Shown one piece after another: positions 3,560-53,159 of a stretch of DNA of 64,000 nucleotides. This DNA is from Arenicellales bacterium (lineage in GTDB: Bacteria > Pseudomonadota > Gammaproteobacteria > Arenicellales > Poriferihabitantaceae), in the NCBI GenBank assembly GCA_963665165.1, contig OY761989.1:1903734-1967733 (forward strand), read 5' to 3'. The notes below the pieces were generated by a model. That model saw only the letters and a program-made list of their open reading frames with translations. It was not told the DNA's origin and did not search any database. Made by a program: the position numbers and the translations under genes. Numbering within the stretch: position 1 is the stretch's first letter; each line of letters starts with the position of its first letter.

Positions 3560-4102
3560 ATGGTAGACGATACTTCTGAACTCAAAAGCCGGTACGAGGA
3601 GGCGCGACAGAAATTCAAACCGGAAAGCGTGCAGTATTTGCTCATTGCAGAGGCGCCGCCCGACAGCGTTGAACGTTTTTTCTATTGTGAAAGCGTTCGT
3701 AACCACGACCACTTGTTTCTGGGTGTAGCACAAACGCTCTACCCCGGCGACAAGGAAAAATTTCTTGAAAGCGGGCGCAGTAGCGATATTAAACGCTCAA
3801 TCCTGCTTAAACTTAAAGAAGACGGTTTTTACTTGCTGGATTTGTCAGAACTTCCCCTTTCCCGAAATCCGGATGGGCTGTGTTCCCAACTCCCGTCGCT
3901 TGTCGAGAGAATAGAGAGGATCGCAGACAAGGCGACAAAAATTATTTTAATCAAGGCATCTGTTTACGACCTGGCATTTGACTATCTGCGACAACAAGGG
4001 TTCGAAAATGTCGTCGATGTCAGAATTCCGTTTCCGGCATCAGGTCAACAAGGGCGATTCCAGAAAAAATTCCGCAAGGCGCTTCTTGATGCTCATCAAT
4101 GA
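3560..4102 (+). CDS. Hypothetical protein, possibly uracil-DNA-glycosylase-superfamily fold
   Basis: In-frame ATG at 3560 within ORF 3326..4102, downstream of the previous gene. LLIAEAPP...RFFY resembles the UDG family-4/5 GE(A/G)PG motif and the C-terminal RIPFPASG resembles the HPS motif. The call is weak. Confidence 0.35.
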   Translation: MVDDTSELKSRYEEARQKFKPESVQYLLIAEAPPDSVERFFYCESVRNHDHLFLGVAQTLYPGDKEKFLESGRSSDIKRSILLKLKEDGFYLLDLSELPLSRNPDGLCSQLPSLVERIERIADKATKIILIKASVYDLAFDYLRQQGFENVVDVRIPFPASGQQGRFQKKFRKALLDAHQ

Positions 4103-4128
4103 AACCTGTGTATATAATGCAGAACATT

Positions 4129-4788
4129 ATGTGCACAAATTTCGGATTAATCAACCGAGGCGGTACGGCAAGGCTCGCAAAGCGTCTGTCGGTTGACGAT
4201 ACATCCTTGATTTACTGTGATGACTTCAGGCCCGGGGCGACCATCAGCATCGTCAACGAGTCGGGTGGAGCGCGTCGGGTCTGTCCCGCAATCTGGTGGC
4301 TATATCTGCAACAGACTCCCGATGGCCTGAAACCTCACCGGAACTACTTCAGCGTCAATACCAATCACGCCAGGCTGCTGAAGAAGGCGGAATACCGCAC
4401 TTCGCGCTGCATCGTCCCGGCCAGTTGCTTTGTCGAGAGTCAGGGGGGCAGGAACCCGCATCTGCTGGAACCGAAGGACGGCAGCGCCATAGCCTTCGGG
4501 GGACTATACAAGGAGTGGACGGACAAGGTAACAGGGGAGTATGTGACCTCGGCCTCGATCATCACCCTGCCGGGACATCCCGGGCTGGAGGAGATTCACC
4601 GGAAATCCACCCCGTTGTGGCTGCCGGAAGAGGCTTTTGATCAATGGCTGTCCCCTGATATCCGGGATACGTCCCTGTTCGATGAATTGCTGGTCCCTGC
4701 CCTGAGATGCGACCTGCTTGCCACACCTGTCAACCGGGCAAGCGACAAACAGCCGATCAGGCTGCCCGTCACCATTCCCATGTCCTGA
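4129..4788 (+). CDS. SOS response-associated peptidase (SRAP/YedK, DUF159) abasic-site processing protein
   Basis: The start was chosen so that the protein begins MC (catalytic Cys2): MCTNFGL. It also shows FGGLYKEW, SASIITLPGHPGLEEIHRKSTPLWL and other typical SRAP blocks. Confidence 0.85.
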   Translation: MCTNFGLINRGGTARLAKRLSVDDTSLIYCDDFRPGATISIVNESGGARRVCPAIWWLYLQQTPDGLKPHRNYFSVNTNHARLLKKAEYRTSRCIVPASCFVESQGGRNPHLLEPKDGSAIAFGGLYKEWTDKVTGEYVTSASIITLPGHPGLEEIHRKSTPLWLPEEAFDQWLSPDIRDTSLFDELLVPALRCDLLATPVNRASDKQPIRLPVTIPMS

Positions 4789-5597: not shown

Positions 5598-5903
5598 TTA
5601 GCCAACTTCGATCTCAACAATAATTCCGATGTTGGGTTTATCTTCTGTACCCCCAAGAACCCTGCGAACCCAAGCCCGGACGCGAACAAGCTTCGGGATC
5701 GAATACATCAACCCTCCTGCCTCGGCTTCTCGCAATGCCTCTTCGAGACCCGCTTTCAGTGCGTAGAACTGGCGTGCGTTGTCCCTGTCCATAAGCAGTC
5801 GCATACCTGCACACACGACTTCATCCAGATTGGTATACGACCCCGACTTGATCTGCCCTTGAATATAGTCCTCCATCTGCTCGGTAAGGTGTACGTTTGG
5901 CAT
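5598..5903 (-). CDS. ParD-family type II antitoxin (RHH)
   Basis: MPNVHLTEQMEDYIQGQIKSGSYTNLDEVVCAGMRLLMDRD matches the ParD (PF03693-type) N-terminus. The C-terminal ~30 aa are atypical. Confidence 0.65.
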   Translation of the reverse strand: MPNVHLTEQMEDYIQGQIKSGSYTNLDEVVCAGMRLLMDRDNARQFYALKAGLEEALREAEAGGLMYSIPKLVRVRAWVRRVLGGTEDKPNIGIIVEIEVG

Positions 5904-6822: not shown

Positions 6823-9567
6823 TCAGGAGAGTTTCGCTGAGCGGCACATTCCGCTAAAATCGCAGGACCGGCATTTATTTACTGTCGGAGCGGGTTTCAG
6901 GTCACCGGTCCGAAGTGCTACAGCGGCTTCCCGTACCTGTTCCTGAACATCGTTGATAAAATCTTGGTCGACTGATCGCTGCTTGCCTCTTCCTTCGTCG
7001 AGTTCATAAATCTCGACGTAATCTGCATCTTCGCCCGTAAGTTCCTTGTAGCCGAGAGCGTAGGTATGAAGCTGGGTCTCCGTGATCTCTTCGGCTTGGG
7101 CCCGTTCGCTGGATTTGAGGTCGATAATCGTCGTCTCATTCGTGTCGATGCGTTTTACCAGATCAATACGGCCGATTACACGAATGCCATCTCCTAGGTT
7201 GATTTCCACCTGCTTCTCTGAAAACTCGATATATCCGAACTCCTGTCTCTTGTCCTCGATGTACCGGGACAGGACGCCTTCAGCCGACTCTGTAAGCGTG
7301 CCTCTGAGCACCGGATAGGCGTATGGCACGTGAAGATGCGTCGCAACCAGGCTCGGCACCTCTTCCTGGGAGACAATGTCTCCGCGAATTGCACGCGAAT
7401 GTACCTCTGCCAGTGCATCATGAAGGGATTTGCCGTATCCCAGCGCTTCGTGAATGGGCGGATTGAATCCATAGAGCACTCTCAGCTTGAACTGGTAAGG
7501 GCATTCAAAGTAATACTTTATATCAGAAAACGAAAATACGACATTGGCTATTCCGGGCTTGGGTTTGGGTGTCAACCGCTGCTGATTTGTGTAATCCGGC
7601 TTACGCCGTTTCACGTATTTGGACGCGAGAACATTCTCCCAGAATTCGGACGGACGGCTGTAGCGGTTGTTCTTGCCTGATATCGGGGCCCAAGTCATGT
7701 GAAGGAACTTGCGGCTGCGGGTAACTGCAACGTAGAAGAGTCGGCGCTCGTCTTCCTTCGAACTCAAATATCTCTCCTGATTCTTGACGCCGTCGCCGGG
7801 CAGCAGATGCCACACGTTTCTCCCTGCCGGCCGCGCGGAAGGAAACCGGTTGCGCAACAATGCCGGGACGAAGACCACCGGCCATTCCATGCCCTTGGCC
7901 TGATGGATCGTCATGATCTTGACCGCATCGAGATTCGCGTACTGATTGTCCTGCCAGCCCTCTGGATAGGCATCATCGACCCGGTGATCGAGAAACCCGG
8001 CAAATCCCTCGTACTTATCCATCGGTTTGGAATGGAAATGTATGGTCTCGAAGTCCGAGATGACCTGGCTGAACTTGCCAAGATTGGAAAATGCTATTTC
8101 ACCGTGTCCGCCAGGAGTCAGATCCTCTTGAATACCGGCATCGTCGATGAAGTCCCTGAACACCCGCTGAATCGAATACAACCCCCATCGCATCTGCTGA
8201 GGATCGGCGATCGCCTGCTGGGCGTTCTCCGCTTTGTCGATAGCCTGTTCTAGGACGGCTTGGTCCAACGTAAAGCTGGTGCGATTCCATGCCTCGACAA
8301 GAGTGCCCCTATCGATCCGGCCGACCATGAAATAGAAAAGCTGTCGCGCTGCCTCGGCTTCCGGTGTATCGAACAGCCTGGCCATCCCGGTGACTACGTA
8401 CGGAATGCCTGCTTCCTCAAGAGCGACGCAGATCGGTTCACCGTTATTTTTGACGCTGCGGAGGAGCACCGCCATATCGGACCACGATAGGCCTCTGGAA
8501 TGCCCGTCCTCTTCGAACGCTACGCCATGCAGCGACTTGATCGACTCGACGATGTGCAATGCCTCTGCTTCGGGCGTCTCGAAGTTCAGTGCGACGATAT
8601 CTCCCGGCTCGTATGTCTGGACACTCTTTGGCGACATCGATTTCGCCAACCTGTCCGGGTTTTGCTCGATGAAGGATTGTGCGACATCGATGATTCCCTC
8701 GCTCGAGCGAAAGTTGTCTTCCAAGCGAACCTGTTTCACTGAGGAATAACGGTCTTTAAACGTCAGGATGTTCTGAACATCGCTGCCGCGCCATTGATAG
8801 ATGGTCTGGTCGTCATCTCCAACCACGCAAACTTTCGCACCGATCTCGTGCAGTTCCCTGACGATTGACTCCTGAATCGGGTTGACATCTTGGTATTCAT
8901 CTACAATTACGCATCGTATGCGTTCATTCAGACGTGCACGAACTTCTTGATTTCCCGCGAGCATCTCAACCGCTTTAGCAAGAATCGAAGAATAGTCCAG
9001 ATATCGTTTTTCCTGAAGGATAGACTGGTAACTGTCCAAGCCTTCCATGATGGAACAATCGGTCAGGAACGCGGCATCGAGATCCGCTTCAAGAAGAATG
9101 GAAAGAGCATTGCTGTAATGTCCGGTATCTATGTAACGTCTAAGCGTCCTGTTCTTCAGATCGGTCGATCTCGTGAGACCTGATTGCTGGGAGTACCGGT
9201 CAATGAAGAGCTTTTGCTGGACTTCTCCCAATACTTCGTACTTCAGGTATTCTGGATCCTCTGCCTTCAGTAAATCCAGGCAGAACGCGTGGATCGTGCC
9301 GACGAACATTTCGGCCATCCCCGTGACCTCTCCAAGGGTTTCCCGGGTCCGCGTGACAATCCGCTCCTTGAGTTCAGCTGCAGCCTTTTCCGTAAAGGTG
9401 AAAGAGACGATGTTTTCCGGCCGTAGCGACTGCGGGCCGTCAGAATTCATCAAACGAACAACACGCCGTGCGACGACCTCGGTCTTTCCCGAGCCTGCAC
9501 AGGCAATCATCTGCATATTGGCCAAGCCGAGTTCCACGGCCTCGCGCTGAGTGTCGGTAAGTTTCAT
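6823..9567 (-). CDS. UvrD/Rep-family SF1 helicase fused to a C-terminal Cas4/AddB-like PD-(D/E)xK nuclease with a 4-Cys cluster
   Basis: Helicase motifs present are ACAGSGKTEV, VIVDEYQDVNP, VVGDDDQTIYQWRG, LEDNFRSS, TIHQAKGMEWPVVFV and YVAVTRSRKFL. The nuclease tail shows YFECPYQF...GRIDLV...IIDLKSS...CRSCDFSGMC (C-x2-C-x5-C). The ATG at 9567 overlaps the upstream stop (ATGA). Confidence 0.85.
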   Translation of the reverse strand: MKLTDTQREAVELGLANMQMIACAGSGKTEVVARRVVRLMNSDGPQSLRPENIVSFTFTEKAAAELKERIVTRTRETLGEVTGMAEMFVGTIHAFCLDLLKAEDPEYLKYEVLGEVQQKLFIDRYSQQSGLTRSTDLKNRTLRRYIDTGHYSNALSILLEADLDAAFLTDCSIMEGLDSYQSILQEKRYLDYSSILAKAVEMLAGNQEVRARLNERIRCVIVDEYQDVNPIQESIVRELHEIGAKVCVVGDDDQTIYQWRGSDVQNILTFKDRYSSVKQVRLEDNFRSSEGIIDVAQSFIEQNPDRLAKSMSPKSVQTYEPGDIVALNFETPEAEALHIVESIKSLHGVAFEEDGHSRGLSWSDMAVLLRSVKNNGEPICVALEEAGIPYVVTGMARLFDTPEAEAARQLFYFMVGRIDRGTLVEAWNRTSFTLDQAVLEQAIDKAENAQQAIADPQQMRWGLYSIQRVFRDFIDDAGIQEDLTPGGHGEIAFSNLGKFSQVISDFETIHFHSKPMDKYEGFAGFLDHRVDDAYPEGWQDNQYANLDAVKIMTIHQAKGMEWPVVFVPALLRNRFPSARPAGRNVWHLLPGDGVKNQERYLSSKEDERRLFYVAVTRSRKFLHMTWAPISGKNNRYSRPSEFWENVLASKYVKRRKPDYTNQQRLTPKPKPGIANVVFSFSDIKYYFECPYQFKLRVLYGFNPPIHEALGYGKSLHDALAEVHSRAIRGDIVSQEEVPSLVATHLHVPYAYPVLRGTLTESAEGVLSRYIEDKRQEFGYIEFSEKQVEINLGDGIRVIGRIDLVKRIDTNETTIIDLKSSERAQAEEITETQLHTYALGYKELTGEDADYVEIYELDEGRGKQRSVDQDFINDVQEQVREAAVALRTGDLKPAPTVNKCRSCDFSGMCRSAKLS

Positions 9568-12500
9568 TGCACCTCCGCTGCGAGTGCCCGCCATCCATGA
9601 TCGAAAACGAACGCCTTGGCCTGTCCGGCAGGATCCTGGATACGGATGATATTCGGATCTGGGGTTCCCGTATGCTCCACCACATAGAGCCAGTAGTCTT
9701 CACCCCTGAGCTGGGCTGTGTCGAACTGCGTACGGGAAAGCGCGACCCAGCCATCTTCTGAAAACGGGCCGCTGATCGCCTTGACCTCGATCCACTTCAA
9801 CCCACGGTCAGCAGCATCCTTCTCGACAAGATCGAAACCGGGATTGTTTACTCCTGTCCACTGCAGATAGGGCTCCTCTTTGAGGATAAGCTGGATTGCT
9901 TGTTCTTCGAGTTTCATGTTTTTTGCGTGCGCTTCGCTGCCTTCTTCCGTGGGAGGACCGTCCCCCCCTATGTGTATGTACGTGACAGGCTTAGGTCGGT
10001 TCGTGCCATTCGTGGTTCCGCCATTCGAACGTCCTCCGCCTGAGGTTTCTTCTCCTTCTGTCTCATCAGTGGAACTGTGTTCGGTGTCGGAATCATCGTC
10101 TGCATGTTCATCGTCCTGATCCGGTCCTACAAATGCCTCATCTTCTTGATACCGTTCGAGGAGGGCTTGCAGTTGCGACTCGGTCGTAAGGCCATGCTTT
10201 TTCAACAAGGAAAGAACCTGCGGCTCAAAGCCGGCATCCAAGGCCAGTTTATCAAGATGTCCAGGCTTGAACCTGAGCCTCTTCTGCAAGTCGTGATTCT
10301 CCTTCCAGCCCAGCGCTTCAAAAGTTGTTTCAGCGGGAGAGAAAAGAACACCATCTTCTCCTACGATCCACGGCAACGTACGTAGTCGTTCAACGAAAGC
10401 TGCGTCGAAATAATGATGCTTTTGGGTATAGTAATGCCATCGATAGACTCCCCGGAATGCGACCGAACCAGATCTGTCCTCCAGATCGCAGAGTGCCTCC
10501 CACAGTAGAGAAGCTTTTCGATGCATAGTATCAATGTCCAGAGTCGGCAAGATTTCCAACACCCCCTCCAGTCCACGCAACGTGCAATCTTCGATATAAT
10601 TGCCCCCACTATTCTGTACACATCCCTCGCTGCTACGCATTTTATACAGATCTTCATGGGTAAATTCCCTCTCGCATTCCTCCGTCACAAGGCGACGGGC
10701 GGCACCAACTGCCACCAGCATGTCCCGACTCCTTTCCTGTCTCAGAACCCGAACATCAGCAACCAGTAGAACACCTTCAACCCCATCGAACAATTCTTTC
10801 AGACGCTCCGTGGCGACGTAAACCTCTCCTGGTCGCGCAAACACTGGTTCCCCCGATGCAGCGTCGAATGCGGAAACGAATGGTGTTTTCGACAAGGCTT
10901 CTTTAAGCCGTTCCAGCCTCTCCGAGGAGTCGGTCCTGAAGGCCGTCAAGATACGCTCAATATCGGATGTATACTGATCCCCGGGCAACCCCGGGCCAGG
11001 TACATATCGAGGAAGAACATGAGCAATCACGTCATCGACAAGGTCAGGCTCAGAGAGACCAAGGCGTTCGAGAAATTCCCGTGCCTCTGCTTCCCGACAG
11101 ATCGAACCTCGAACAACAGGAAAATCCGTTTCGGTTTCGCCGGGCAGGAAAGCGCAAGGATTTCCATGTACATCCTTGGCCGGGACATGAGATTCATCCT
11201 CCAGCCGTACCAATTCAATGTAGTCCAGCAGACCTTTTGACAGCAGAGATGACTGTCCCGCCAGGAAGGCATACAACTCCACAATCCAGGAATCCGTCTG
11301 CTTCTCTAGAAACTGAACACCCAACTGACGCACAACATCTTCCGGGGTTATTTCCTCAACGCCGAGTTCCTGCATCAGGCAGTTTTGCAATCCTGGGGTC
11401 CGATCCAGAGTAATGCCTCCGTCCAGCCACTTCGCTGCCTCTCCATCAGTGAACAAGTCGGATAGCTGCTGGATATCCAGAAGCTTCCGCAACCCCCTCC
11501 CTCGAGCCAACTTCGCGCACCCTGCTACAACAAAATCCCTGTCATGCGTCGGGAGGAGCCGATGCTGACGAAGAGCAGTCAGGATTGCCTCATACAGCGG
11601 ACGAAACATGTGTCTATCCCCAAATGTCTCCTGATCAATCGGGAGTGTCTGCAATGCGTCCGGATCAAGCAGCTCCAGATCCCGCAATCCTTTAAGAGCA
11701 GATACGAGTAGCTCGGCGGTGGTATCTACCAGGGAACGGTTCCACGAATCAGAACTGACAATGTTGTCACGACTGGGTGTTGTCCGATAAGGCCCTTGAA
11801 TAAGGAAACCGACATCCGTAGCTACGATCGTAGGGAAGTACACCACCAGTTCGGTATTCGTTGCCGACAATACCTTGACTGGTGAATCGGTTGCCGAATC
11901 ACACTCCACCAGAAAGGCCAACTCAGCGTGACCCACCTCGACACCGTCCTCGTCATTCACCGGTTGAGAGAAAACGATCCAGTCTTCGATGTCACCACCC
12001 GATGAATCACTGTCTTCCCCTGTAATACTGATTCGCTCCGCTCCATAGCCAAGTTCTCGTCGCGGATCCCGCAAATAAATACCCTCACCTTCATCTGCAA
12101 TCGACCACTCGATCGTCTCGATCTGGCGGAGAAATAACAGGGTTCTCGCCCCCAACCGCTTGAGCGCCTCTGTGATCTCCTGGAAAGCGTTCTCGTCGTT
12201 TTCCCGAAACGGCAGAACGATCCGCGTCTCTTCCGCTTCGCCTTTGATCGGGGAGACCTGCACAGGGTGAACATATTGCTCAATTGCGAAGTGCACTGCT
12301 CCAGAATGCACTTCGGGGCAATCAGTGTATGCGTTGACCGACTTGAATCCGATTCCAAACCGCCCTATCGCCGTAATATCCTTGGTGCTTTCATCGATCC
12401 CGCACACCCCGCGGACATCGGGCTCGGAGAACGGTTCACCGAAGTGCGAAATAACCAGTTCGTTTTCCGTCAATTCGAACCTGACAGTCCGCTGTTTCCA

Positions 12501-12725
12501 ATCTGGCCGACGGCGCTTGAGGGCATCCTCCGCATTCTGCAGAAGCTCATAGATGAAATGCGATCTGTCGGAGTATCGGTTGGCAAGCAGCATCTGGCCG
12601 ATTCGACCGATATCCGTACCGTACTTGCGTTCGTTTTCTTCGCTGAGTGCCGTGTAATCAATCATCAGGTGGCTGCTTGTGTCAGACGTTTCTTTAGCCC
12701 TTCGGGACATCGCCCCGAAGGGCAT
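9564..12725 (-). CDS. Sacsin-type GHKL (HATPase) ATPase with C-terminal DUF3883 (restriction-endonuclease-like) domain
   Basis: Bergerat-fold N-box IYELLQNAEDA and G-box GRFGIGFKSV lie near the N-terminus. A long middle region and an acidic low-complexity linker follow. The C-terminus shows GLKWIEVKA...DYWLYVVEH, typical of DUF3883. The start (M1/M6/M21) is uncertain. Confidence 0.8.
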   Translation of the reverse strand: MPFGAMSRRAKETSDTSSHLMIDYTALSEENERKYGTDIGRIGQMLLANRYSDRSHFIYELLQNAEDALKRRRPDWKQRTVRFELTENELVISHFGEPFSEPDVRGVCGIDESTKDITAIGRFGIGFKSVNAYTDCPEVHSGAVHFAIEQYVHPVQVSPIKGEAEETRIVLPFRENDENAFQEITEALKRLGARTLLFLRQIETIEWSIADEGEGIYLRDPRRELGYGAERISITGEDSDSSGGDIEDWIVFSQPVNDEDGVEVGHAELAFLVECDSATDSPVKVLSATNTELVVYFPTIVATDVGFLIQGPYRTTPSRDNIVSSDSWNRSLVDTTAELLVSALKGLRDLELLDPDALQTLPIDQETFGDRHMFRPLYEAILTALRQHRLLPTHDRDFVVAGCAKLARGRGLRKLLDIQQLSDLFTDGEAAKWLDGGITLDRTPGLQNCLMQELGVEEITPEDVVRQLGVQFLEKQTDSWIVELYAFLAGQSSLLSKGLLDYIELVRLEDESHVPAKDVHGNPCAFLPGETETDFPVVRGSICREAEAREFLERLGLSEPDLVDDVIAHVLPRYVPGPGLPGDQYTSDIERILTAFRTDSSERLERLKEALSKTPFVSAFDAASGEPVFARPGEVYVATERLKELFDGVEGVLLVADVRVLRQERSRDMLVAVGAARRLVTEECEREFTHEDLYKMRSSEGCVQNSGGNYIEDCTLRGLEGVLEILPTLDIDTMHRKASLLWEALCDLEDRSGSVAFRGVYRWHYYTQKHHYFDAAFVERLRTLPWIVGEDGVLFSPAETTFEALGWKENHDLQKRLRFKPGHLDKLALDAGFEPQVLSLLKKHGLTTESQLQALLERYQEDEAFVGPDQDDEHADDDSDTEHSSTDETEGEETSGGGRSNGGTTNGTNRPKPVTYIHIGGDGPPTEEGSEAHAKNMKLEEQAIQLILKEEPYLQWTGVNNPGFDLVEKDAADRGLKWIEVKAISGPFSEDGWVALSRTQFDTAQLRGEDYWLYVVEHTGTPDPNIIRIQDPAGQAKAFVFDHGWRALAAEVQ

Positions 12726-12778
12726 GTTTCAAAATTATTGCCAATACCATGACCGGTGCGAAGCGCTGATCAGCCGTT

Positions 12779-13747
12779 TTACGACGGTATGCCGGTCAGG
12801 GAAATTATCTGTTCCCGAAAATCGTCATAATCTTCCCCTTTGGCCCTGACCAGATCGGATATCCGGTAAAACCGATTCGTCGATGGGCTCTCCCGACTGG
12901 CGAGGTCCAGATCTATCCGATCCACATTGACCACCGTCCAGCATTCCGCGTAACCGTCAGCCCTTGCTTTCTGGTGGCTCTTTTCCGCTTCGCCGATCCG
13001 ATTGTGTATATTGGAAAAGTCCGATCCTCCCTTCACTTCCACGGCTATCAGCTTTCGGAACCGATCTTTGCCCATCTCTTCACGGATGATGATATCGGGA
13101 TCGGATGAAAACTCGATAAATACGCGCCGGCCTGCCGCGTTTTCCACTTCTATGGACCTCTCCGTGACGCTGCTCGCCGACTGCTTCACAATGTCATGAA
13201 TCGCATCGAAAACCTGGACAATCCCGGCAGCACCTTTCCTGACATTCGCCCCGCCCCGCAATTGCGGGCCAAGCGTCAATAGGGTCAGATCATCGAGAAG
13301 CGCACGGCTTACCCGATCCGTCCCTATGCCGTCCAAGAGAAATGCTCCTGCATCGCAAAGCGCTTCGCACAAAGTCGTCAGATTCTTCGCATTCGCTTCC
13401 GTAAGACGCCCGTGTTGCTCCATGGACTTGTAACGGCTGATGCCCGTTGCGGTTGTGTAGAATTCCTTCTGACTGAAACCGTACAACAGTCGATAGTAGC
13501 CGAGCAATCGGGGGTTGTCGGCGAGAATCATCGGAACAGGAAACATCAATTCGCCCCGAAGTCCGCAGCTTGCGAGCGATGCGAGACTGTCTGCCGGCAC
13601 TAACACCGCGAGTTCCTGATCAATCTCAGTCACATCAAGCACGCGGACCGTTTCGGCCAGCGCATCCTGCAGGTAAAGTCCGCGCATCTCCGTCAACACA
13701 ACGGAGAAATCGCGTTGAAGCTGCGGTAGCGGAATAGTGAACATCAT
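12779..13747 (-). CDS. Type II restriction endonuclease, PD-(D/E)xK (XcyI/Cfr9I-like family suspected)
   Basis: Visible PD...EVK catalytic motif (SSDPDIIIREE...LIAVEVKGG) followed by SNIHNRIGEAEKSH. The start overlaps the methyltransferase stop (ATGA at 13744..13747). The family-level call is from memory of the XcyI family signature LLGYYRLL. Confidence 0.7.
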   Translation of the reverse strand: MMFTIPLPQLQRDFSVVLTEMRGLYLQDALAETVRVLDVTEIDQELAVLVPADSLASLASCGLRGELMFPVPMILADNPRLLGYYRLLYGFSQKEFYTTATGISRYKSMEQHGRLTEANAKNLTTLCEALCDAGAFLLDGIGTDRVSRALLDDLTLLTLGPQLRGGANVRKGAAGIVQVFDAIHDIVKQSASSVTERSIEVENAAGRRVFIEFSSDPDIIIREEMGKDRFRKLIAVEVKGGSDFSNIHNRIGEAEKSHQKARADGYAECWTVVNVDRIDLDLASRESPSTNRFYRISDLVRAKGEDYDDFREQIISLTGIPS

Positions 13748-14613
13748 GCCGCTATGCGAACGATCATGGCTTCATCGGCCTGGAGCCGGTCCGCAGCGAG
13801 CGCAACGTATTCCGGGTTAAGCTCAACCCCCACGTACTTCCTGCCCAGACGGTGCGCCGCAAGCCCCACCGTTCCCGATCCGAAGAACGGGTCCAGAACA
13901 AAATCCTCCGGTTCGGTGGCCGCCAGAATGCATGGTTCCACCAAGGCAATCGGGAAGGTGGCGAAGTGGGCCCCGGGGAACGCCTGGGTATTGATGTTCC
14001 AGACGGATCGGCGATTCCGCTTGCCGGTTTCTCTGACCTCCATGATCGCCGTGCGATCGTAGTGGTATCGCTCGTCCTTGGTGAACATGAAGATATATTC
14101 GTGCGACCGGGTCGGTCGATCCTTTACGCTTTCGGGCATGGCATTCGGCTTGTTCCAGATTATGTCCGCCCGGAGATACCATCCGTCCTCCTGCATCGCA
14201 AATGCCAGGCGCCACGGTATGCCGAGCAGGTCCTTGGGCTTCAGGCCGGTCGGCGTGTCCGGACGCACGGACATGGCTCGGGCCGGGTTCTTCCTGTCGG
14301 GTGCGCGCCAGCCGCGGTTGCCGCTCGTGTATCCGTCCCCAATGTTCAGCCAGAAAACGCCGTCATCCTTGAGTACGCGATGCACTTCCCCGAAGATGGA
14401 GCGCAAGGAATTAATGTATTGCGAAAGCGAGCCTTCGAGGCCCAGTTGATCGGGGATGCTGTAGTCCCTCAGCCCCCAGTAGGGAGGAGAGGTGATGACG
14501 GACTGCACCACACAATCCGGCAAACGCTGAAGAACAGACAGGGCGTCTCCCTCATAGATCACGGAGTCGGAGAAATGGAGTTTTTCGGGCTTATCAACCT
14601 TTTCCGTTCTCAT
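13744..14613 (-). CDS. Beta-class N4-cytosine/N6-adenine DNA methyltransferase (SPPY motif, m4C favoured)
   Basis: Motif IV VITSPPYWGLRDY is N-terminal and motif I VLDPFFGSGTVG is C-terminal. It also shows DIIWNKPNAMPES and HEYIFMFTK (N6_N4_Mtase-type blocks). Confidence 0.9.
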   Translation of the reverse strand: MRTEKVDKPEKLHFSDSVIYEGDALSVLQRLPDCVVQSVITSPPYWGLRDYSIPDQLGLEGSLSQYINSLRSIFGEVHRVLKDDGVFWLNIGDGYTSGNRGWRAPDRKNPARAMSVRPDTPTGLKPKDLLGIPWRLAFAMQEDGWYLRADIIWNKPNAMPESVKDRPTRSHEYIFMFTKDERYHYDRTAIMEVRETGKRNRRSVWNINTQAFPGAHFATFPIALVEPCILAATEPEDFVLDPFFGSGTVGLAAHRLGRKYVGVELNPEYVALAADRLQADEAMIVRIAA

Positions 14614-14617
14614 TGAT

Positions 14618-15183
14618 TACTGCTTCCTGGAACTTTCCACGTACTTGTATAGGGTCAGCTTCGAAATGTGCATCATCTCACAGATCTGGTGACGGTGTAC
14701 TGTTTTTCATCGTAAAGTTTGACCTCCAGATCCTGCTTGTCCAGAACCAAAGCCTTGGGTCTGCCGCCCTTTCGTCCCCGCGCACGCGCTGCCTGCAGGC
14801 TCGCATTGGTTCTTTCTCGGATCAGATTGCGTTTGAACTCGGCCAGGGCGCCGAACAGGTAGAATACCAGCTTGCCGGTGCTGGACGAGGTATCGATGGA
14901 TCCATGCAGACTCTTCAGGCCGATGCCTAGAGATCCCAGCCTGCTCACCATTTCGATCAGATCCTGCAGTGACCGGTTCAAACGGTCGAGTCTCCAAACA
15001 GCAGGACATCGTCGGCTCTTGCGTACTCGAGCGCCGCCGCAAGGCCCGGACGGTCCGCTCTCGCTCCGCTGAGGTGATTTCGAATATCCGTTCGCAGCTG
15101 GCACCACGCAGCGCATCCTGCTGCAGGGACAGATTCTGATCGTCCGTCGAGATCCGCGCGTAGCTGATTAGCACCACTCGCAC
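14618..15183 (-). pseudogene. Serine recombinase (resolvase/invertase) gene disrupted by about three frameshifts
   Basis: The N-terminus VVLISYARISTDDQNLSLQQDALRGA.CERIF is in one frame. SGARADRPGLAAALEYARADDVLL is in a second frame. WRLDRLNRSLQDLIEMV...GALAEFKRNLIRERT...GRKGGRP is in a third frame. The HTH ICEMMHISKLTLYKYV is in a fourth frame. Confidence 0.8.
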
Positions 15184-17507: not shown

Positions 17508-17762
17508 ATGAACAGCAAGCACAAAAAGACATTCGCTGCTGTTTTTGCAACGCCTGTACCAAAGAATATCGAATGGGCGAAAATAGAAGCGCTATTAATT
17601 GCGGCAGGTTGTATTGTTTCGGATGGTAGTGGTTCAAGGGTAAAGTTTGACTTTAAAGGACATACTGCGGTTTTTCATCGACCACACCCGCAAAAAGAAA
17701 CCAAACCGTATGCCGTCCGTCTGGTACGCGAATACTTGGAGCTGACCGGTATCAAACCATGA
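17508..17762 (+). CDS. hicA: HicA-family toxin (type II TA)
   Basis: 84 aa with GSGSRVKFDFKGHTAVFHRPHPQKETKPYAVRLVREYL. It overlaps the downstream hicB-like gene by 4 nt. Confidence 0.75.
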   Translation: MNSKHKKTFAAVFATPVPKNIEWAKIEALLIAAGCIVSDGSGSRVKFDFKGHTAVFHRPHPQKETKPYAVRLVREYLELTGIKP

Positions 17763-18133
17763 ATAATTTAACGTACAAAGGCTATTACGCAAATATCCAG
17801 TTTGAAGCAGACAGCGATGTTTTTGTGGGCCGTTTGGCAGGCATTACCGATATTGTCGTGTTTGAATCGGATACGGTTGAGGGCCTTAAAACGGCGTTTA
17901 TTGAAGCGGTGGATGATTATCTGGCGCATTGCAGGCGTATAGGGAAACACCCGCAAAAAGCGTTTTCCGGAAAGTTGATGTTGCGGATCAACCCGGAAAT
18001 ACACGCAGAGATTGCATTAGCGACTGAGCTGAGCCACGCAAAAAGCATGAATGAGTTTGCAGAAGCGGCTTTGCACAAGGAAGCCCAGGCATACATAAAC
18101 GCACAACAGGATGTTCAAAGACCTGCAAAATGA
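17759..18133 (+). CDS. hicB: HicB-family antitoxin
   Basis: YKGYYANIQFEADSDVFVGRLAGITDIVVFESDTVEGLKTAFIEAVDDYLAHC is typical of the HicB N-domain. The C-terminus is RHH-like (GKLMLRINPEIHAEIA). Confidence 0.8.
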   Translation: MNNLTYKGYYANIQFEADSDVFVGRLAGITDIVVFESDTVEGLKTAFIEAVDDYLAHCRRIGKHPQKAFSGKLMLRINPEIHAEIALATELSHAKSMNEFAEAALHKEAQAYINAQQDVQRPAK

Positions 18134-20415: not shown

Positions 20416-20491
<76 letters not shown>

Positions 20492-45274: not shown

Positions 45275-45362
45275 GGAGAGTTGGCAGAGCGGTCGAATGC
45301 GGCGGTCTTGAAAACCGTTGACTGTAACAGGTCCGGGGGTTCGAATCCCTCACTCTCCGCCA
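45275..45362 (+). tRNA. tRNA-Ser (anticodon UGA), copy 1
   Basis: GGAGAGTTGGCAGAGCGGTCGAATGCGGCGGTCTTGAAAACCGTTGACTGTAACAGGTCCGGGGGTTCGAATCCCTCACTCTCCGCCA. It has a 7-bp acceptor stem, a long variable arm, anticodon loop CTTGAAA and well-paired stems. Confidence 0.9.
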
Positions 45363-50786: not shown

Positions 50787-50874
50787 GGAGAGTTGGCAGA
50801 GCGGTCGAATACGGTGATCTTGAAAACCGTTGACTGTAACAGGTTCGGGGGTTCGAATCCCCCACTCTCCGCCA
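50787..50874 (+). tRNA. tRNA-Ser(UGA)-like second copy (5 substitutions relative to copy 1; D-stem and anticodon-stem mismatches, possibly decaying)
   Basis: GGAGAGTTGGCAGAGCGGTCGAATACGGTGATCTTGAAAACCGTTGACTGTAACAGGTTCGGGGGTTCGAATCCCCCACTCTCCGCCA. It has the same length and anticodon as copy 1. By hand folding, C11/A24 and A30/C40 are mismatched. Confidence 0.6.
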
Positions 50875-51038: not shown

Positions 51039-53159
51039 TTGGGGGAGCATATGCATGCAATAAAACGTTCATTTATGAACATAATCGAAGGCACCAAACA
51101 ATTTATCATTCCCGTCTTCCAGCGGGACTTCAGTTGGACCCGTGAGCAGTGCGAGCAATTGTGGCGTGATGTAAGACGTGCGAATGAGGGGGAAGTTGAT
51201 AGCGGACATTTCATGGGCTCAATCGTCTATATTGAGGCCGACCTTTCTAGCGCTGCTTTTCAAAGATGGTTGCTGATTGATGGACAACAGCGACTGACGA
51301 CATTGACGGTTCTCATGATCGCATTGCGCGACCACATCCAGGCAGTGTCTTGGTCTGGAAGCGATGACGGTCCTACAGCCGAAAGAATTAACGCATACTA
51401 CTTGAAGAATCTGCATGAGTCCGGGCAACGGCGGTACAAACTCATGCTGCGACGCAAAGACAATGCTACATTGCAAGCGCTGATTGACGGGGAGAGGACA
51501 ACCGACCTCGAAAACGAACACTCAGAGTTGCTCATCGACGCCTACGAGCTGTTCCTATCTAAGTTTCGAGAAACAGATTGTGACCCGGAAGATGTCTATC
51601 AAGGCATTGCCCGCTTGAACGTAGTTGACGTCACGCTTCGCCGAGGTGTCGATAACCCACAACTCGTATTCGAGAGCATGAATTCCACCGGGGTTAATTT
51701 GCGGCCAAGCGATCTAATTCGGAACTACCTCCTGATGGATCTGGGTGAATCGGAGCAGACCCAACTTTACGATAAGTATTGGAAAAAAATTGAGAGCCTG
51801 TTTCGATCATCGGGCGATGAGTTCGACAGCTTTCTGCGGGACTACATGGCGTTAGAGCAGGGTCATACTCGACAGATTCGTCTGGACCGCGTCTACGACG
51901 AGTTCAAGTCCTTCCGAAAACACGATAGTGGCAAGCCGATGGAGGTGTTGTTTGAGGACATGGTCCGGGTCGCTCGCACCTATGCATCGTTTCTTGGGAT
52001 CGCGCCAATGCAAGACTCACGGCTCGCGAATGCTATGAGCCATATGCGGTCATTGAACACGACGACCCCAAGGCTGTTAATCATGCGACTATACGACTAC
52101 CACGAAAAGGAGTCGCTATCTCAGGACGAGTTTGTCCGTGCTGTTGTGCTGATCGAGAGCTACCTGTTGCGCCGCGCCGTTCTCGGTTTGCAGACCCGTG
52201 GCTACTGGTCTGTCTTCGCCCGCATTGCACATGGTCTTAATCGCGAGTCCGTCTTCGAGTCGTTACAAGTCGAGTTCGCGCGGTTGAGGGACAACAATCG
52301 ATTTCCGAGTGACGAGGAATTCATGAGAGGATTGCAGGAACATAACCTGTATGGACTGCGTATCTGCAAGCACCTGCTGAACCGACTGGAAAACGCAGGA
52401 TATCAGGAGCCGAGCCCCGTCCATGACTACTCAATCGAGCACATCATGCCCGTAGATATCGCACAAACAACGGAGTGGCAGAACATGCTCGGAGAGAATT
52501 GGATGGAAGATCATGAGGTTTGGTTACACCGATTGGGCAACTTGACGCTGACGGCTTACAACAGCCGCTACTCCAATCGGCCGTTCGAGAAGAAAAAGAC
52601 TATAGAGGGTGGGTTCCGGCATAGCGCTGTCCGACTGAACGAGGATGTCAGAGATCAGGCGCAGTGGACCATTACGGAAATCGAAAACCGCGGGAACCGG
52701 TTGGCCACCCGTGCGCTTGCTGTATGGCCACCCCATGGAGCAGATGCAAAGAACATACAGGCGGCGGATATCCGCGATCTGAGGAAGCGTGCCGCAGAGC
52801 GAAACATTAGCGAGCTAGACATGGACGATGCAGTCCAAAATGTGCTCAATGGGATATTGTTATCCATTCGTGACTTGGTTGACGTCATTGAAGTGCTTGA
52901 GCACAAATCGGTTTGCTGTTATGGGCCAGATTTTTTCGCTGAACTGATACCGATGCGCCATTCAGTCAAAGTGATACTGCCACTACAGTTCAGTGAGGTC
53001 GAAATCCCTGAGGGGTTAGCTGTCCGTGATGCATCCACACAGAAATTCGTGGCGAATCGAGTACACACGGATAGTAACTTGATAGTAGAAGTTTCGGATA
53101 AGGCAGAAATCACGTCTGTTATGCGGATGATTCGCCAGTCTTTGGATCAGTCGCGGTAA
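51039..53159 (+). CDS. GmrSD-type DUF262 + DUF1524 protein (putative modification-dependent type IV restriction enzyme) with extra C-terminal domain
   Basis: The DUF262 part shows IPVFQRDFSW...GSIVYI...LLIDGQQRLTTL. The DUF1524 His-Me part shows YSIEHIMP...WLHRLGNLTLTAYNSRYSNRPF. An unassigned C-terminal region of ~170 aa follows. The start could be the ATG at 51051, which follows GGGGAG. Confidence 0.8.
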   Translation: MGEHMHAIKRSFMNIIEGTKQFIIPVFQRDFSWTREQCEQLWRDVRRANEGEVDSGHFMGSIVYIEADLSSAAFQRWLLIDGQQRLTTLTVLMIALRDHIQAVSWSGSDDGPTAERINAYYLKNLHESGQRRYKLMLRRKDNATLQALIDGERTTDLENEHSELLIDAYELFLSKFRETDCDPEDVYQGIARLNVVDVTLRRGVDNPQLVFESMNSTGVNLRPSDLIRNYLLMDLGESEQTQLYDKYWKKIESLFRSSGDEFDSFLRDYMALEQGHTRQIRLDRVYDEFKSFRKHDSGKPMEVLFEDMVRVARTYASFLGIAPMQDSRLANAMSHMRSLNTTTPRLLIMRLYDYHEKESLSQDEFVRAVVLIESYLLRRAVLGLQTRGYWSVFARIAHGLNRESVFESLQVEFARLRDNNRFPSDEEFMRGLQEHNLYGLRICKHLLNRLENAGYQEPSPVHDYSIEHIMPVDIAQTTEWQNMLGENWMEDHEVWLHRLGNLTLTAYNSRYSNRPFEKKKTIEGGFRHSAVRLNEDVRDQAQWTITEIENRGNRLATRALAVWPPHGADAKNIQAADIRDLRKRAAERNISELDMDDAVQNVLNGILLSIRDLVDVIEVLEHKSVCCYGPDFFAELIPMRHSVKVILPLQFSEVEIPEGLAVRDASTQKFVANRVHTDSNLIVEVSDKAEITSVMRMIRQSLDQSR

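What the first reader, a model, noticed from the sequence alone, without database searches (positions are those of the whole stretch)
6823..12725. Sacsin-type GHKL ATPase-DUF3883 protein translationally coupled to a UvrD helicase-Cas4-like nuclease
A 1053-aa protein carries a Bergerat ATPase head (IYELLQNAEDA, GRFGIGFKSV), a long uncharacterised middle, an acidic linker and a DUF3883 endonuclease-like tail. Its stop overlaps (ATGA at 9564..9567) the start of a 914-aa SF1 UvrD-type helicase. The helicase C-terminus is a PD-(D/E)xK nuclease with a C...C-x2-C-x5-C cluster, as in Cas4/AddB.

The ATPase + nuclease-like + helicase-nuclease composition is reminiscent in logic of Gabija (OLD ATPase nuclease + UvrD-like GajB). 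It also recalls the GHKL/MORC ATPases predicted in R-M-like operons. The domain set itself (sacsin-type HATPase + DUF3883 with UvrD-Cas4) is not one I can assign to a named system.

The pair lies immediately downstream of, and co-oriented with, a type II R-M pair. Only 53 nt separate the R gene from the ATPase gene, so all four genes may form one transcription unit.
Basis: partly seen in the sequence, partly recalled or inferred. Interest (0 to 1): 0.8.

Follow-up and report, generated by a model that had tools for sequence, protein, structure and literature searches.

The report
Tiamat-like ATPase-nuclease with helicase-nuclease partner
Two overlapping genes next to a restriction-modification pair encode a distant relative of the Tiamat anti-phage protein and a dedicated DNA helicase-nuclease; this pairing recurs next to restriction systems in many bacterial phyla, but I found no defence catalogue or paper that describes it.

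Summary
Two minus-strand genes overlap by ATGA at 9564-9567. One encodes a sacsin/Hsp90-type GHKL head, a long middle, an acidic linker and a DUF3883 PD-(D/E)xK tail. The other encodes a 914-aa UvrD-type SF1 helicase fused to a Cas4/AddB-type four-Cys nuclease.

There are two corrections. The ATPase most likely starts at ATG 12665, giving 1033 aa and a 113-nt gap to the restriction gene, not 53 nt. It is also not unassignable: it hits all nine TmtA (Tiamat) models of PADLOC-DB (best 4.4e-66) and aligns with the verified Bacillus cereus TmtA at 23% identity. It is a short, distant Tiamat relative.

Tiamat is catalogued as a single gene, so the partner is the new element. A full-length UvrD-nuclease lies beside the ATPase in about 35 of 81 genome loci, in 6 of 6 full-length IMG/VR relatives, and in six of seven other loci examined in the window's own clade. 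Gene order varies. The usual setting is a four-gene cassette with type III Mod and Res. In the window's clade the partner is instead a type II XcyI- or SmaI-family system, or none.

I read it as a Tiamat-family, restriction-linked, DNA-degrading defence module. The mechanism is inferred. It is a new variant of a known kind.

The parts
13744..14613 (-). N4/N6 DNA methyltransferase (289 aa) of a type II R-M pair. Its stop overlaps the REase start by 4 nt.
   Evidence: Pfam N6_N4_Mtase 8.7e-55. PADLOC MTase_II 2.7e-130. 87% identical to the MTases of L081 and L082, and 54% to the MTase beside a SmaI-family REase in L087.
12779..13747 (-). XcyI-family type II restriction endonuclease (322 aa).
   Evidence: Pfam RE_XcyI 9.7e-114. 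PADLOC REase_II 3e-130. 82% and 77% identical to the REases in the same position in L081 and L082.
12734..12762 (-). Sigma-70-like promoter candidate (TTCGCA, 17 nt spacer, AATAAT) in the REase-ATPase gap.
   Evidence: Consensus scan, 9 of 12 matches; the region as a whole holds no more such sites than shuffled sequence. The AATAAT element and its surroundings are conserved in L081. Weak evidence only.
12697..12723 (-). Perfect 10-bp hairpin (GCCCTTCGGG-N7-CCCGAAGGGC) in the leader of the ATPase gene. Function unknown.
   Evidence: Read from the sequence. As RNA the centroid fold is -24.2 kcal/mol, z = -3.3, and 0 of 200 shuffles fold as well. Partly conserved in L081.
9564..12665 (-). TmtA-like (Tiamat-family) protein of 1033 aa counted from ATG 12665. 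The longest ORF reaches 12725 (1053 aa). Order: Hsp90/sacsin-type GHKL head, conserved middle, acidic disordered linker, DUF3883 nuclease tail.
12297..12581 (-). GHKL (Bergerat-fold) head, residues 49-143 of the 1053-aa ORF. N-box E60/N64/D67 and G-box G121-x-F-G-I-G-F-K are invariant. The motif-II Asp is replaced by an invariant His94.
   Evidence: Pfam SACS and NCBIfam P_loop_sacsin. Invariant columns. Sequence matches to sacsin SR1 (5v44-5v47) and Hsp90. Foldseek match to full-length Hsp90, E 1e-8.
9948..10148 (-). Acidic, low-complexity linker, predicted to be disordered.
   Evidence: pLDDT below 50 for residues 840-906 of the 1033-aa model.
9567..9947 (-). DUF3883/NOV_C PD-(D/E)xK nuclease-like domain with invariant D965 and E980-V-K982 (1053-aa numbering).
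   Evidence: Pfam NOV_C 1.7e-8. Invariant in alignments of 20 and 69 homologues. PADLOC TmtA C-terminal match, residues 870-1051. Weak fold match to YaeQ, probability 0.8.
6823..9567 (-). SF1A UvrD-type helicase fused to a Cas4/AddB-type nuclease (914 aa). Its start overlaps the ATPase stop (ATGA at 9564-9567).
7648..9567 (-). Helicase core (about residues 1-640) with Walker A GSGKT (25-29) and DEYQD (223-227).
   Evidence: Pfam UvrD-helicase and UvrD_C. Best solved relatives are UvrD (2is1, 3.3e-48), PcrA, Rep and AdnB. Motifs are kept in 27-31 of 31 homologues.
6826..7536 (-). C-terminal PD-(D/E)xK nuclease (residues 678-914) with D802, D816-x-K818, Q832-x3-Y836 and the four cysteines C689, C899, C902 and C908.
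   Evidence: Pfam PDDEXK_1 1.4e-27 and Cas_Cas4. PADLOC Cas4 and DruK hits for this part alone. Each named residue is kept in 30 of 31 homologues.

Best explanation
The two genes are one two-component, DNA-targeting defence module of the Tiamat family.

Component A is a short, distant TmtA relative. It has a sacsin/Hsp90-type GHKL head and conserved middle that probably dimerise into an ATP-driven clamp. A flexible acidic linker tethers a DUF3883 PD-(D/E)xK nuclease. Component B is a UvrD-type 3'-5' helicase fused to a Cas4/AddB-type iron-sulfur nuclease, that is, a one-polypeptide AddA/RecB-like end processor.

The genes are translationally coupled and co-inherited, so the two proteins most likely act as a complex.

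Proposed mechanism, inferred by analogy with MutL-UvrD and with GHKL-nuclease Shedu proteins: A engages foreign DNA and nicks or cuts it, or it holds ends made by the neighbouring restriction enzyme. A then loads or licenses B, which unwinds and degrades the DNA processively.

The module is typically built into restriction-modification cassettes: type III Mod/Res in most lineages, and a type II XcyI- or SmaI-family pair in the window's clade. There it would turn a limited restriction cut into irreversible destruction without relying on the host RecBCD/AddAB. It can also stand alone.

Shown: the architecture, the intact catalytic motifs, homology to TmtA, co-conservation and the linkage to R-M. 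Inferred: complex formation, the order of events, the DNA substrate and the defence phenotype.
For: Homology to Tiamat:
- All nine PADLOC TmtA models match, best 4.4e-66. The matches cover the N-half (46-573 against 33-574 of 1302) and the tail (870-1051 against 1322-1505 of 1563).
- BLASTP to the first 399 aa of the verified B. cereus TmtA gives 23% identity over 380 aa, E 5e-10.
- Millman et al. list TmtA as 'Hsp90, DUF3684, DUF3883'.

Catalytic residues are invariant in A and kept in B.

Co-conservation:
- A full-length UvrD-nuclease lies within 9 kb of the ATPase in about 35 of 81 genome loci spanning many phyla. It occurs in three gene orders, mostly as the immediate neighbour.
- It is present in 6 of 6 full-length IMG/VR relatives.
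- It is present in six of seven other window-clade loci, each with a 4-nt overlap.
- Pairwise distances of A and B correlate, r = 0.73.

R-M linkage:
- Type III Mod (PADLOC MTase_III 3e-124) and Res (REase_III 1e-18) share the cassette in about 28 loci.
- The cassette M-R(XcyI)-A-B recurs in L081 and L082 with unrelated flanks. L087 has a SmaI-family R-M instead.

Autonomy: the pair occurs without an adjacent R-M in L001, L084/L085 and L086, beside TIR or NACHT-like genes or efflux-pump genes.

Analogues:
- VcSduA (GHKL plus PD-(D/E)xK) needs both its ATPase and its nuclease for defence (PMC12137116).
- MORC/paraMORC GHKL proteins sit in R-M operons with helicases, and MutL activates UvrD (PMC2292703).
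Against: - There are no experimental data for this family. The only verified TmtA is about 1590 aa, works as a single gene, and is only 23% identical in the part I could compare.
- About 30-35 of 81 relatives have no recognisable partner, so the ATPase can apparently exist alone.
- The association is not reciprocal. UvrD-nuclease homologues occur with type III Mod/Res but without the ATPase (L104, L122, L164). None of 11 full-length helicase homologues in the metagenome sample had the ATPase next to it, though several of those contigs end at the helicase.
- The canonical adenine-binding Asp of the GHKL fold is a His in this family, so ATP binding is not assured.
- A physical complex was not tested.
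Confidence: 0.55

Rival explanations
1. The four genes form one obligate system. The ATPase-nuclease and the helicase-nuclease are accessory subunits of the restriction enzyme, for example to link recognition and cleavage sites or to process cuts, and they have no defence activity of their own.
For: The four-gene cassettes are conserved in gene content but permuted in order: HEL-ATP-MOD-RES, HEL-MOD-RES-ATP, MOD-RES-HEL-ATP, and divergent arrangements. The cassette M-R-A-B recurs in L081 and L082. The ATPase tracks Res (r = 0.75) and Mod (r = 0.69) about as closely as it tracks the helicase. No terminator-like site lies between the window's four genes. MORC/paraMORC proteins set a precedent.
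Against: The pair occurs without an adjacent R-M in L001, L084/L085 and L086. The R-M partner is swapped between unrelated types (type III; XcyI; SmaI) while the pair stays. A promoter-like site lies between R and A. A single-gene Tiamat is sufficient in B. cereus.
Confidence: 0.2
2. These are two independent single-gene defences, a Tiamat-like protein and a stand-alone helicase-nuclease. They sit together only because defence genes cluster in islands.
For: Tiamat is catalogued as a single gene. Many relatives of the ATPase lack the helicase. Helicase homologues occur without the ATPase. The window region looks like an island, with toxin-antitoxin genes, a resolvase fragment and low G+C.
Against: A 4-nt start/stop overlap is kept in every window-clade pair. 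Immediate adjacency holds across many phyla and in three orientations. The two proteins' distances correlate. Island clustering does not usually preserve one specific partner family.
Confidence: 0.12
3. The pair is a DNA repair or recombination module. It would be an AddAB/AdnAB-like end processor with a MutL-like partner that repairs self-inflicted restriction breaks or supports maintenance of a mobile element, rather than attacking invaders.
For: The helicase-nuclease architecture is that of AddA, RecB and AdnB. The GHKL-plus-UvrD pairing mirrors mismatch repair. Linkage to R-M could reflect a need to survive self-restriction.
Against: Scores to the repair equivalogs fall far below their cut-offs: recB 180 against 696, addA 145 against 708, uvrD 246 against 1144. 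Distribution is patchy and horizontally mobile, with transposase-flanked copies. The ATPase is homologous to a verified anti-phage protein. The neighbours are defence genes.
Confidence: 0.06

Closest known systems
Tiamat (TmtA), Millman et al. 2022
   Same: Both have an Hsp90/sacsin-type GHKL head and a C-terminal DUF3883 nuclease-like domain. All nine PADLOC TmtA profiles match, on both the N-terminal half and the tail. The alignment with the verified B. cereus TmtA N-terminus is significant.
   Different: The window protein is about 1033 aa, against 1429-1590 aa for the tested TmtA proteins. Pfam detects no DUF3684. Identity is only 23%. Tiamat is defined as a single gene, whereas this family has a conserved, translationally coupled UvrD-nuclease partner and is usually built into an R-M cassette. 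Two canonical-type TmtA loci that I could see had no such helicase, but both genes were disrupted and two loci is a small sample.
GHKL-nuclease Shedu (VcSduA, formerly paraMORC3) and prokaryotic MORC/paraMORC proteins of R-M operons
   Same: These also combine a GHKL ATPase, a clamp-like middle and a C-terminal PD-(D/E)xK nuclease. In VcSduA both activities are needed for defence (PMC12137116). MORC/paraMORC genes sit in R-M operons next to helicases (PMC2292703).
   Different: The GHKL head here belongs to the sacsin/Hsp90 branch, not MORC. The nuclease is DUF3883, not DUF4263. The helicase partner is an SF1 UvrD-nuclease, not the SF2 Rad25 or SNF2 helicases described for MORCs, although the basal clades of this family do pair with an SNF2/DrmD-like helicase.
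Gabija (GajA and GajB)
   Same: Both are two-gene modules made of an ATPase-nuclease and a UvrD-family protein. The helicase hits GajB profiles at 7e-59.
   Different: There is no OLD-type ABC ATPase or TOPRIM nuclease. The GajB matches cover only the generic UvrD core. The GajB profiles are only about 380-725 positions long and match the helicase core; the nuclease part hits Cas4 and DruK profiles instead.
AddAB / AdnAB / RecBCD helicase-nucleases and Cas4
   Same: Like AddA, RecB and AdnB, the protein is an SF1A helicase followed by a RecB-family nuclease. Like AddB and Cas4, it has a four-cysteine cluster and a QxxxY motif.
   Different: It is a single polypeptide with no second subunit of that kind. 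Its scores lie far below the equivalog cut-offs. Its partner is a GHKL-nuclease.
MutL-UvrD (with MutH) of methyl-directed mismatch repair
   Same: A GHKL ATPase with an associated nuclease activity works together with a UvrD helicase, guided by DNA methylation status. This is established knowledge, summarised in PMC2292703.
   Different: There is no orthology, since the head is sacsin-type and not MutL. The context is defence rather than repair. The analogy concerns mechanism only.
Hma (HmaA = SNF2 helicase fused to DUF3883)
   Same: DUF3883/NOV_C serves as the nuclease module of a helicase-containing defence system (PMC11232893).
   Different: In HmaA the nuclease is fused to the helicase. 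Here it is fused to the GHKL ATPase, and the helicase carries its own, different nuclease.

Membership tests
Tiamat (TmtA) | Match to the catalogue's TmtA profiles | tested here: met
   Nine of nine PADLOC TmtA models match, best 4.4e-66. PDLC03972 aligns residues 46-573 with profile positions 33-574 of 1302. PADLOC's own thresholds and DefenseFinder were not run.
Tiamat (TmtA) | N-terminal Hsp90-like (sacsin-type) GHKL domain | tested here: met
   Pfam SACS 3.5e-13. NCBIfam P_loop_sacsin 78 bits against a cut-off of 50. Foldseek match to Hsp90, E 1e-8.
Tiamat (TmtA) | Middle DUF3684 domain | tested here: inconclusive
   Pfam gives no DUF3684 hit at E <= 0.01. However, TmtA profiles align through the middle of the relative L011 (residues 32-778). 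The protein is about 400-550 aa shorter than the tested TmtA proteins.
Tiamat (TmtA) | C-terminal DUF3883 | tested here: met
   Pfam NOV_C 1.7e-8. The D...ExK motif is invariant.
Tiamat (TmtA) | A single gene is sufficient for anti-phage defence | not testable with these tools
   This needs an experiment. The conserved partner argues that this subfamily works as a pair.
Gabija | GajA: OLD-family ATPase with a TOPRIM nuclease | tested here: not met
   No gene of the cassette gives a GajA hit. The ATPase matches only TmtA models.
Gabija | GajB: UvrD-like protein of about 500-650 aa | tested here: inconclusive
   GajB profiles match at 7e-59, but only over the UvrD core. The protein has an extra Cas4-type nuclease of about 240 aa.
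AddAB / RecBCD / AdnAB | Score above the equivalog cut-off, and a partner subunit | tested here: not met
   recB 180 against 696, addA 145 against 708, pcrA 254 against 911. No AddB-, RecC- or RecD-like gene is adjacent.
Type II R-M, XcyI family (the neighbouring pair) | XcyI-family endonuclease with an adjacent N4/N6 methyltransferase | tested here: met
   RE_XcyI 9.7e-114 and N6_N4_Mtase 8.7e-55, with a 4-nt gene overlap. The CCCGGG specificity is assumed from what is known of the family and was not tested. CCCGGG is not avoided in the window: 29 sites against 34 expected.
Type III R-M-linked four-gene cassette (HEL + ATPase + Mod + Res) | Type III Mod and Res next to the pair | tested here: not met
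   Mod and Res are absent from the window. They are present in about 28 relatives' loci. The window's clade has a type II R-M or none.

The most novel reading that the evidence does not exclude
The pair is the core of an unrecognised, phylum-spanning class of restriction-coupled defence. A Tiamat-type GHKL-nuclease and a UvrD-Cas4 helicase-nuclease form a complex that acts downstream of type III or type II restriction. It takes over the DNA-end degradation normally left to RecBCD/AddAB, and so makes restriction robust to phage inhibitors of those enzymes. If so, this would also give the first mechanistic handle on Tiamat, whose mode of action is not described in any paper I could find.
Probability: 0.3. 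Interest if true: 0.8.

Novelty: new variant of a known kind. Interest (0 to 1): 0.62.

Why it matters
Tiamat is a validated anti-phage gene, and I found no published mechanism for it. This subfamily comes with a dedicated helicase-nuclease and is built into restriction-modification cassettes, which points strongly to DNA as the target. It also offers a tractable two-protein system for finding out how sacsin/Hsp90-type GHKL nucleases work.

The recurrent cassette of type III R-M, UvrD-nuclease and TmtA-like protein appears in Acidobacteriota, Chloroflexota, Planctomycetota, Proteobacteria, Nitrospirota, at least one archaeon and other groups. It suggests that many restriction systems carry their own degradation machinery. 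Current defence catalogues would split such a cassette into 'RM' plus 'Tiamat' and leave the helicase unassigned.

The confidently modelled middle region of about 540 residues has no solved structural neighbour.

Tried and rejected
- Gabija membership was rejected. There is no GajA, and the GajB hits are generic.
- AddAB/RecBCD/UvrD orthology was rejected because the scores fall far below the cut-offs.
- No solved Tiamat structure could be found. The PDB sequence search returned only sacsin SR1 and Hsp90 N-domains.
- I tried to retrieve a full-length canonical TmtA from its published first 399 aa. The search returned only fragments of 680 aa or less. The two loci I looked up were IS-disrupted or fragmented. 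The comparison with canonical Tiamat therefore rests on the PADLOC profiles and the N-terminal alignment.
- The exact look-up of the window's own protein in the contig index found nothing, so the source organism was not identified.
- The plasmid collection gave only seven partial hits, so there is no evidence of plasmid carriage.
- Literature searches for Tiamat/TmtA, DUF3684, and DUF3883 with UvrD or Hsp90 found no paper on the mechanism or on this pairing. The library is incomplete, so this absence is weak evidence.
- Avoidance of CCCGGG as a sign of an active R-M was not seen.
- The reciprocal survey starting from the helicase was swamped by ordinary UvrD/PcrA genes. Only 11 full-length helicase-nucleases were recovered and none had the ATPase. 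Three sat with type III Mod (two of them also with Res), and several contigs ended at the helicase.
- The Foldseek search of residues 301-1033 gave no significant match; the best E-value was 0.085.

Full report
**What is there**

On the minus strand the window holds four co-oriented genes:
- an N6_N4 methyltransferase at 13744-14613;
- an XcyI-family restriction endonuclease at 12779-13747, overlapping the methyltransferase by 4 nt;
- a large ATPase-like ORF at 9564-12725;
- a helicase ORF whose ATG lies inside the ATGA at 9564-9567.

Pfam finds a sacsin-type GHKL head (SACS, 3.5e-13) and a DUF3883/NOV_C tail (1.7e-8) in the first protein. In the second it finds UvrD-helicase, UvrD_C, PDDEXK_1 and Cas4. 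NCBIfam agrees, and it shows that the helicase is not an orthologue of UvrD, PcrA, Rep, RecB or AddA, because all scores are far below the cut-offs.

**Correction to the start codon**

The ATPase most likely starts at ATG 12665 (M21 of the ORF).
- The public record of this exact protein is 1033 aa (P0001).
- All homologues begin there.
- 'ATGATTGATTAC' is conserved across seven clade members while the upstream sequence diverges.
- The closest relative has an in-frame stop in the would-be extension.

The R-to-ATPase gap is therefore 113 nt. It holds a weak promoter-like site (12762-12734) whose -10 element is conserved in the closest relative. It also holds a perfect 10-bp hairpin at 12697-12723 (centroid fold -24.2 kcal/mol, z = -3.3). 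No terminator-like site separates the four genes. Sequence alone cannot decide between co-transcription and an internal promoter.

**What the ATPase is**

It is not an orphan.
- It matches all nine TmtA models of PADLOC-DB (best 4.4e-66). The alignments cover both the N-terminal half and the DUF3883 tail.
- TmtA is the single protein of the Tiamat system. The supplement of Millman et al. lists it as 'Hsp90, DUF3684, DUF3883'. The verified example is 1590 aa, from Bacillus cereus FORC_005.
- The window protein aligns with the first 399 residues of that protein at 23% identity over 380 residues (E 5e-10). It aligns with a second, untested-positive TmtA at 23% (6e-14).

So it is a distant, shorter relative with the same end domains. 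Pfam does not see DUF3684 in it.

The family is large. 4987 proteins passed E <= 1e-5, and the best 120 listed are mostly full-length (about 1000-1130 aa) with the same two Pfam domains.

Residues invariant across 69 sequences, in the numbering of the 1053-aa ORF:
- the GHKL N-box E60, N64 and D67;
- the G-box G121-x-F-G-I-G-F-K;
- the nuclease motif D965 ... E980-V-K982.

One caveat applies. The Asp that contacts adenine in Hsp90 and GyrB aligns with an invariant His here, and with Asn in sacsin and in B. cereus TmtA. ATP binding is therefore inferred, not assured.

An AlphaFold2 model (mean pLDDT 82) shows four regions:
- a GHKL head;
- a large, well-ordered middle;
- a disordered acidic linker, residues 840-906 of the 1033-aa form;
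- a compact alpha/beta tail.

Foldseek matches the front of the model to full-length Hsp90 (E 1e-8), sacsin SR1 and the MLH1 N-domain. A second model of residues 301-1033 (mean pLDDT 84) has no significant PDB neighbour. Its tail weakly resembles YaeQ. No Tiamat structure is in the PDB copy by sequence.

**What the helicase is**

It is an SF1A UvrD/PcrA/Rep-type motor (2is1, 3.3e-48). AdnB, AddA and RecB are the more distant solved relatives. Across 31 homologues from the related loci the following are kept in 27-31 sequences:
- Walker A and DEYQD;
- the RecB-family nuclease residues D802, D816-x-K818 and Q832-x3-Y836;
- the four cysteines C689, C899, C902 and C908.

Both activities are therefore predicted to be intact. 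PADLOC gives only generic GajB/RTasHel hits for the motor and Cas4/DruK hits for the nuclease. The helicase gave no full-length match to any named system, among the PADLOC hits I could see.

**Co-conservation**

A scan of one genome per species confirmed 521 relatives of the ATPase, and I examined the 80 best loci.
- tblastn with the window helicase, clustering of neighbouring ORFs, and profile searches show a full-length UvrD-nuclease within 9 kb of the ATPase in about 35 of 81 loci.
- The helicase sits directly upstream on the same strand in about 13 loci, with gaps near zero.
- It sits directly downstream in the window and in L001.
- It is divergently transcribed in about 13 proteobacterial loci.
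- In a few loci it is separated from the ATPase by two genes.

Those two genes are a type III Mod-like methyltransferase (PADLOC MTase_III 3e-124) and a type III Res-like helicase (REase_III 1e-18, or a ResIII domain plus a TnsA-like nuclease). They are present in about 28 loci. The usual unit is thus a four-gene cassette of UvrD-nuclease, TmtA-like protein, Mod and Res, with its order permuted.

Further observations:
- An NJ tree of 75 ATPases places the cassette throughout the crown of the family, with solo ATPases scattered among cassette-bearing sisters. That pattern suggests repeated loss or separation.
- Basal clades pair instead with an SNF2 helicase that matches DISARM DrmD (2e-104).
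- Pairwise distances of the ATPase correlate with those of the helicase (r = 0.73), Mod (0.69) and Res (0.75).
- In IMG/VR, an independent collection, all six full-length relatives carry the helicase with Mod and Res. Three divergent relatives carry the SNF2 partner.

**The window's own clade**

The window groups with L001. Look-ups of closer metagenomic relatives gave the following.
- L081 (74% identical ATPase) and L082 (65%) have the identical four-gene order: N6_N4 MTase, XcyI REase, ATPase, helicase. The helicase overlaps the ATPase by 4 nt, and the flanks are unrelated and rich in transposases.
- L087 (62%) has the pair behind an N6_N4 MTase (54% identical to the window's) and a SmaI-family REase.
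- L084/L085 (57%), L086 (55%) and L001 (54%) have the overlapping pair with no adjacent R-M. Their neighbours are a TIR protein, a NACHT-like protein, or efflux-pump genes.
- L088 has a truncated solo ATPase.

Within this clade the helicase is 73-89% identical to the window's in the five loci compared (69% in L001), more conserved than the ATPase (54-74%). From general knowledge, XcyI and SmaI both recognise CCCGGG and their methyltransferases make N4-methylcytosine. I did not test specificity, and CCCGGG is not avoided in the window.

**Reciprocity**

Starting from the helicase, the metagenome scan was swamped by ordinary UvrD genes. Of 11 full-length helicase-nucleases recovered, none had the ATPase. 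Two (L122, L164) sat with type III Mod and Res, L104 with a Mod-like gene, and several contigs ended at the helicase. The helicase-nuclease therefore has a wider distribution than the ATPase and can accompany type III R-M on its own.

**Interpretation**

Three lines of evidence bear on the unit:
- tight, orientation-independent adjacency across many phyla;
- the conserved start/stop overlap;
- persistence of the pair while the R-M partner is exchanged or lost.

These make the ATPase-helicase pair a functional unit, and its linkage to restriction a recurrent design rather than a chance neighbourhood. Homology to a verified anti-phage protein and the defence-island context argue for defence. That context includes ParD- and HicB-like genes, a resolvase fragment, low G+C at 14-18 kb and a tRNA-Thr at 20416.

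The mechanism is inference. Comparable cases are:
- MutL, which activates UvrD at a nick (PMC2292703);
- GHKL-plus-PD-(D/E)xK Shedu proteins such as VcSduA, which need both ATPase and nuclease activity (PMC12137116);
- AddAB/RecBCD-type end processing.

By analogy with these, I propose that the GHKL-nuclease clamps and cuts foreign DNA, or holds the ends of restricted DNA, and loads the helicase-nuclease, which then degrades it. The rivals are an obligate restriction accessory, two independent systems, or a repair module. They are listed with their tests.

**Novelty**

I did not find three things in PADLOC-DB 2.0, in the Tiamat definition, or in the searchable literature:
- the dedicated UvrD-Cas4 partner;
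- the four-gene type III cassette;
- the type II (XcyI/SmaI) version.

The library is incomplete, so prior description elsewhere cannot be excluded. I rate this a new variant of a known kind.

Noticed in passing
window 12697-12723 (- strand): A perfect 10-bp hairpin (GCCCTTCGGG-N7-CCCGAAGGGC; centroid fold -24.2 kcal/mol, z = -3.3) lies in the leader of the ATPase gene, between a promoter-like -10 element and the true ATG. It is partly conserved in L081, where the 3' arm contains CCCGGG. It could be an operator, an attenuator or an RNA stabiliser.
   Followed up: partly
window 45275-45362 and 50787-50874: Two tRNA-Ser(TGA) genes lie 5.5 kb apart and differ at 5 positions. The second is followed by a low-G+C stretch (0.48-0.50 at 50-54 kb) with a 706-aa ORF at 51039-53159. 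This may be an integration site or island.
   Followed up: no
window 5598-5903, 14707-15183, 17508-18133, 20416-20491: Island-like features surround the cassette: a ParD-like antitoxin, a resolvase N-terminal fragment, a HicB-family gene (17759-18133) preceded by a small overlapping ORF (17508-17762) that was not annotated, G+C of 0.47-0.50 at 14-18 kb, and a tRNA-Thr. An SRAP-domain gene lies at 4099-4788.
   Followed up: partly
L084 16052-19108; L085 9469-12525; L087 375-2750: A C5 DNA methyltransferase and a HATPase_c_3 (MORC-like GHKL) gene recur as a pair a few kb from the ATPase-helicase pair in three window-clade loci. L087 also has a stand-alone 276-aa NOV_C protein.
   Followed up: no
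L104, L122, L164: A UvrD-nuclease sits directly upstream of a type III Mod-like gene (followed by Res in L122 and L164) with no TmtA-like ATPase. The helicase-nuclease can therefore accompany type III R-M on its own.
   Followed up: partly
L003, L058, L067, L068, L073, L074, L077, L079, L080, L097-L099: Basal and divergent members of the ATPase family are paired with an SNF2 helicase of 1000-1200 aa that matches DISARM DrmD (2e-104), not with the UvrD-nuclease.
   Followed up: partly
window about 12444-12446 (His94 of the 1053-aa ORF): The adenine-contacting Asp of GHKL motif II (Hsp90 'IDSGIGM') aligns with an invariant His in this family. The same position is Asn in sacsin and in B. cereus TmtA. 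Nucleotide binding may be atypical.
   Followed up: partly
window about 10146-11765 (residues 301-840 of the 1033-aa protein): The conserved middle region models with pLDDT above 90 but has no significant structural neighbour in the PDB (best Foldseek E-value 0.085).
   Followed up: partly
L022, L032, L052, L056: A RadC/JAB-domain gene of about 240 aa lies immediately upstream of the UvrD-nuclease in four cassette loci.
   Followed up: no
L026, L029, L052: A 505-aa gene with Schlafen AlbA_2, HATPase_c_4 and Fic-like_C domains is inserted between the ATPase and Mod, or lies just after the ATPase, in three loci.
   Followed up: no
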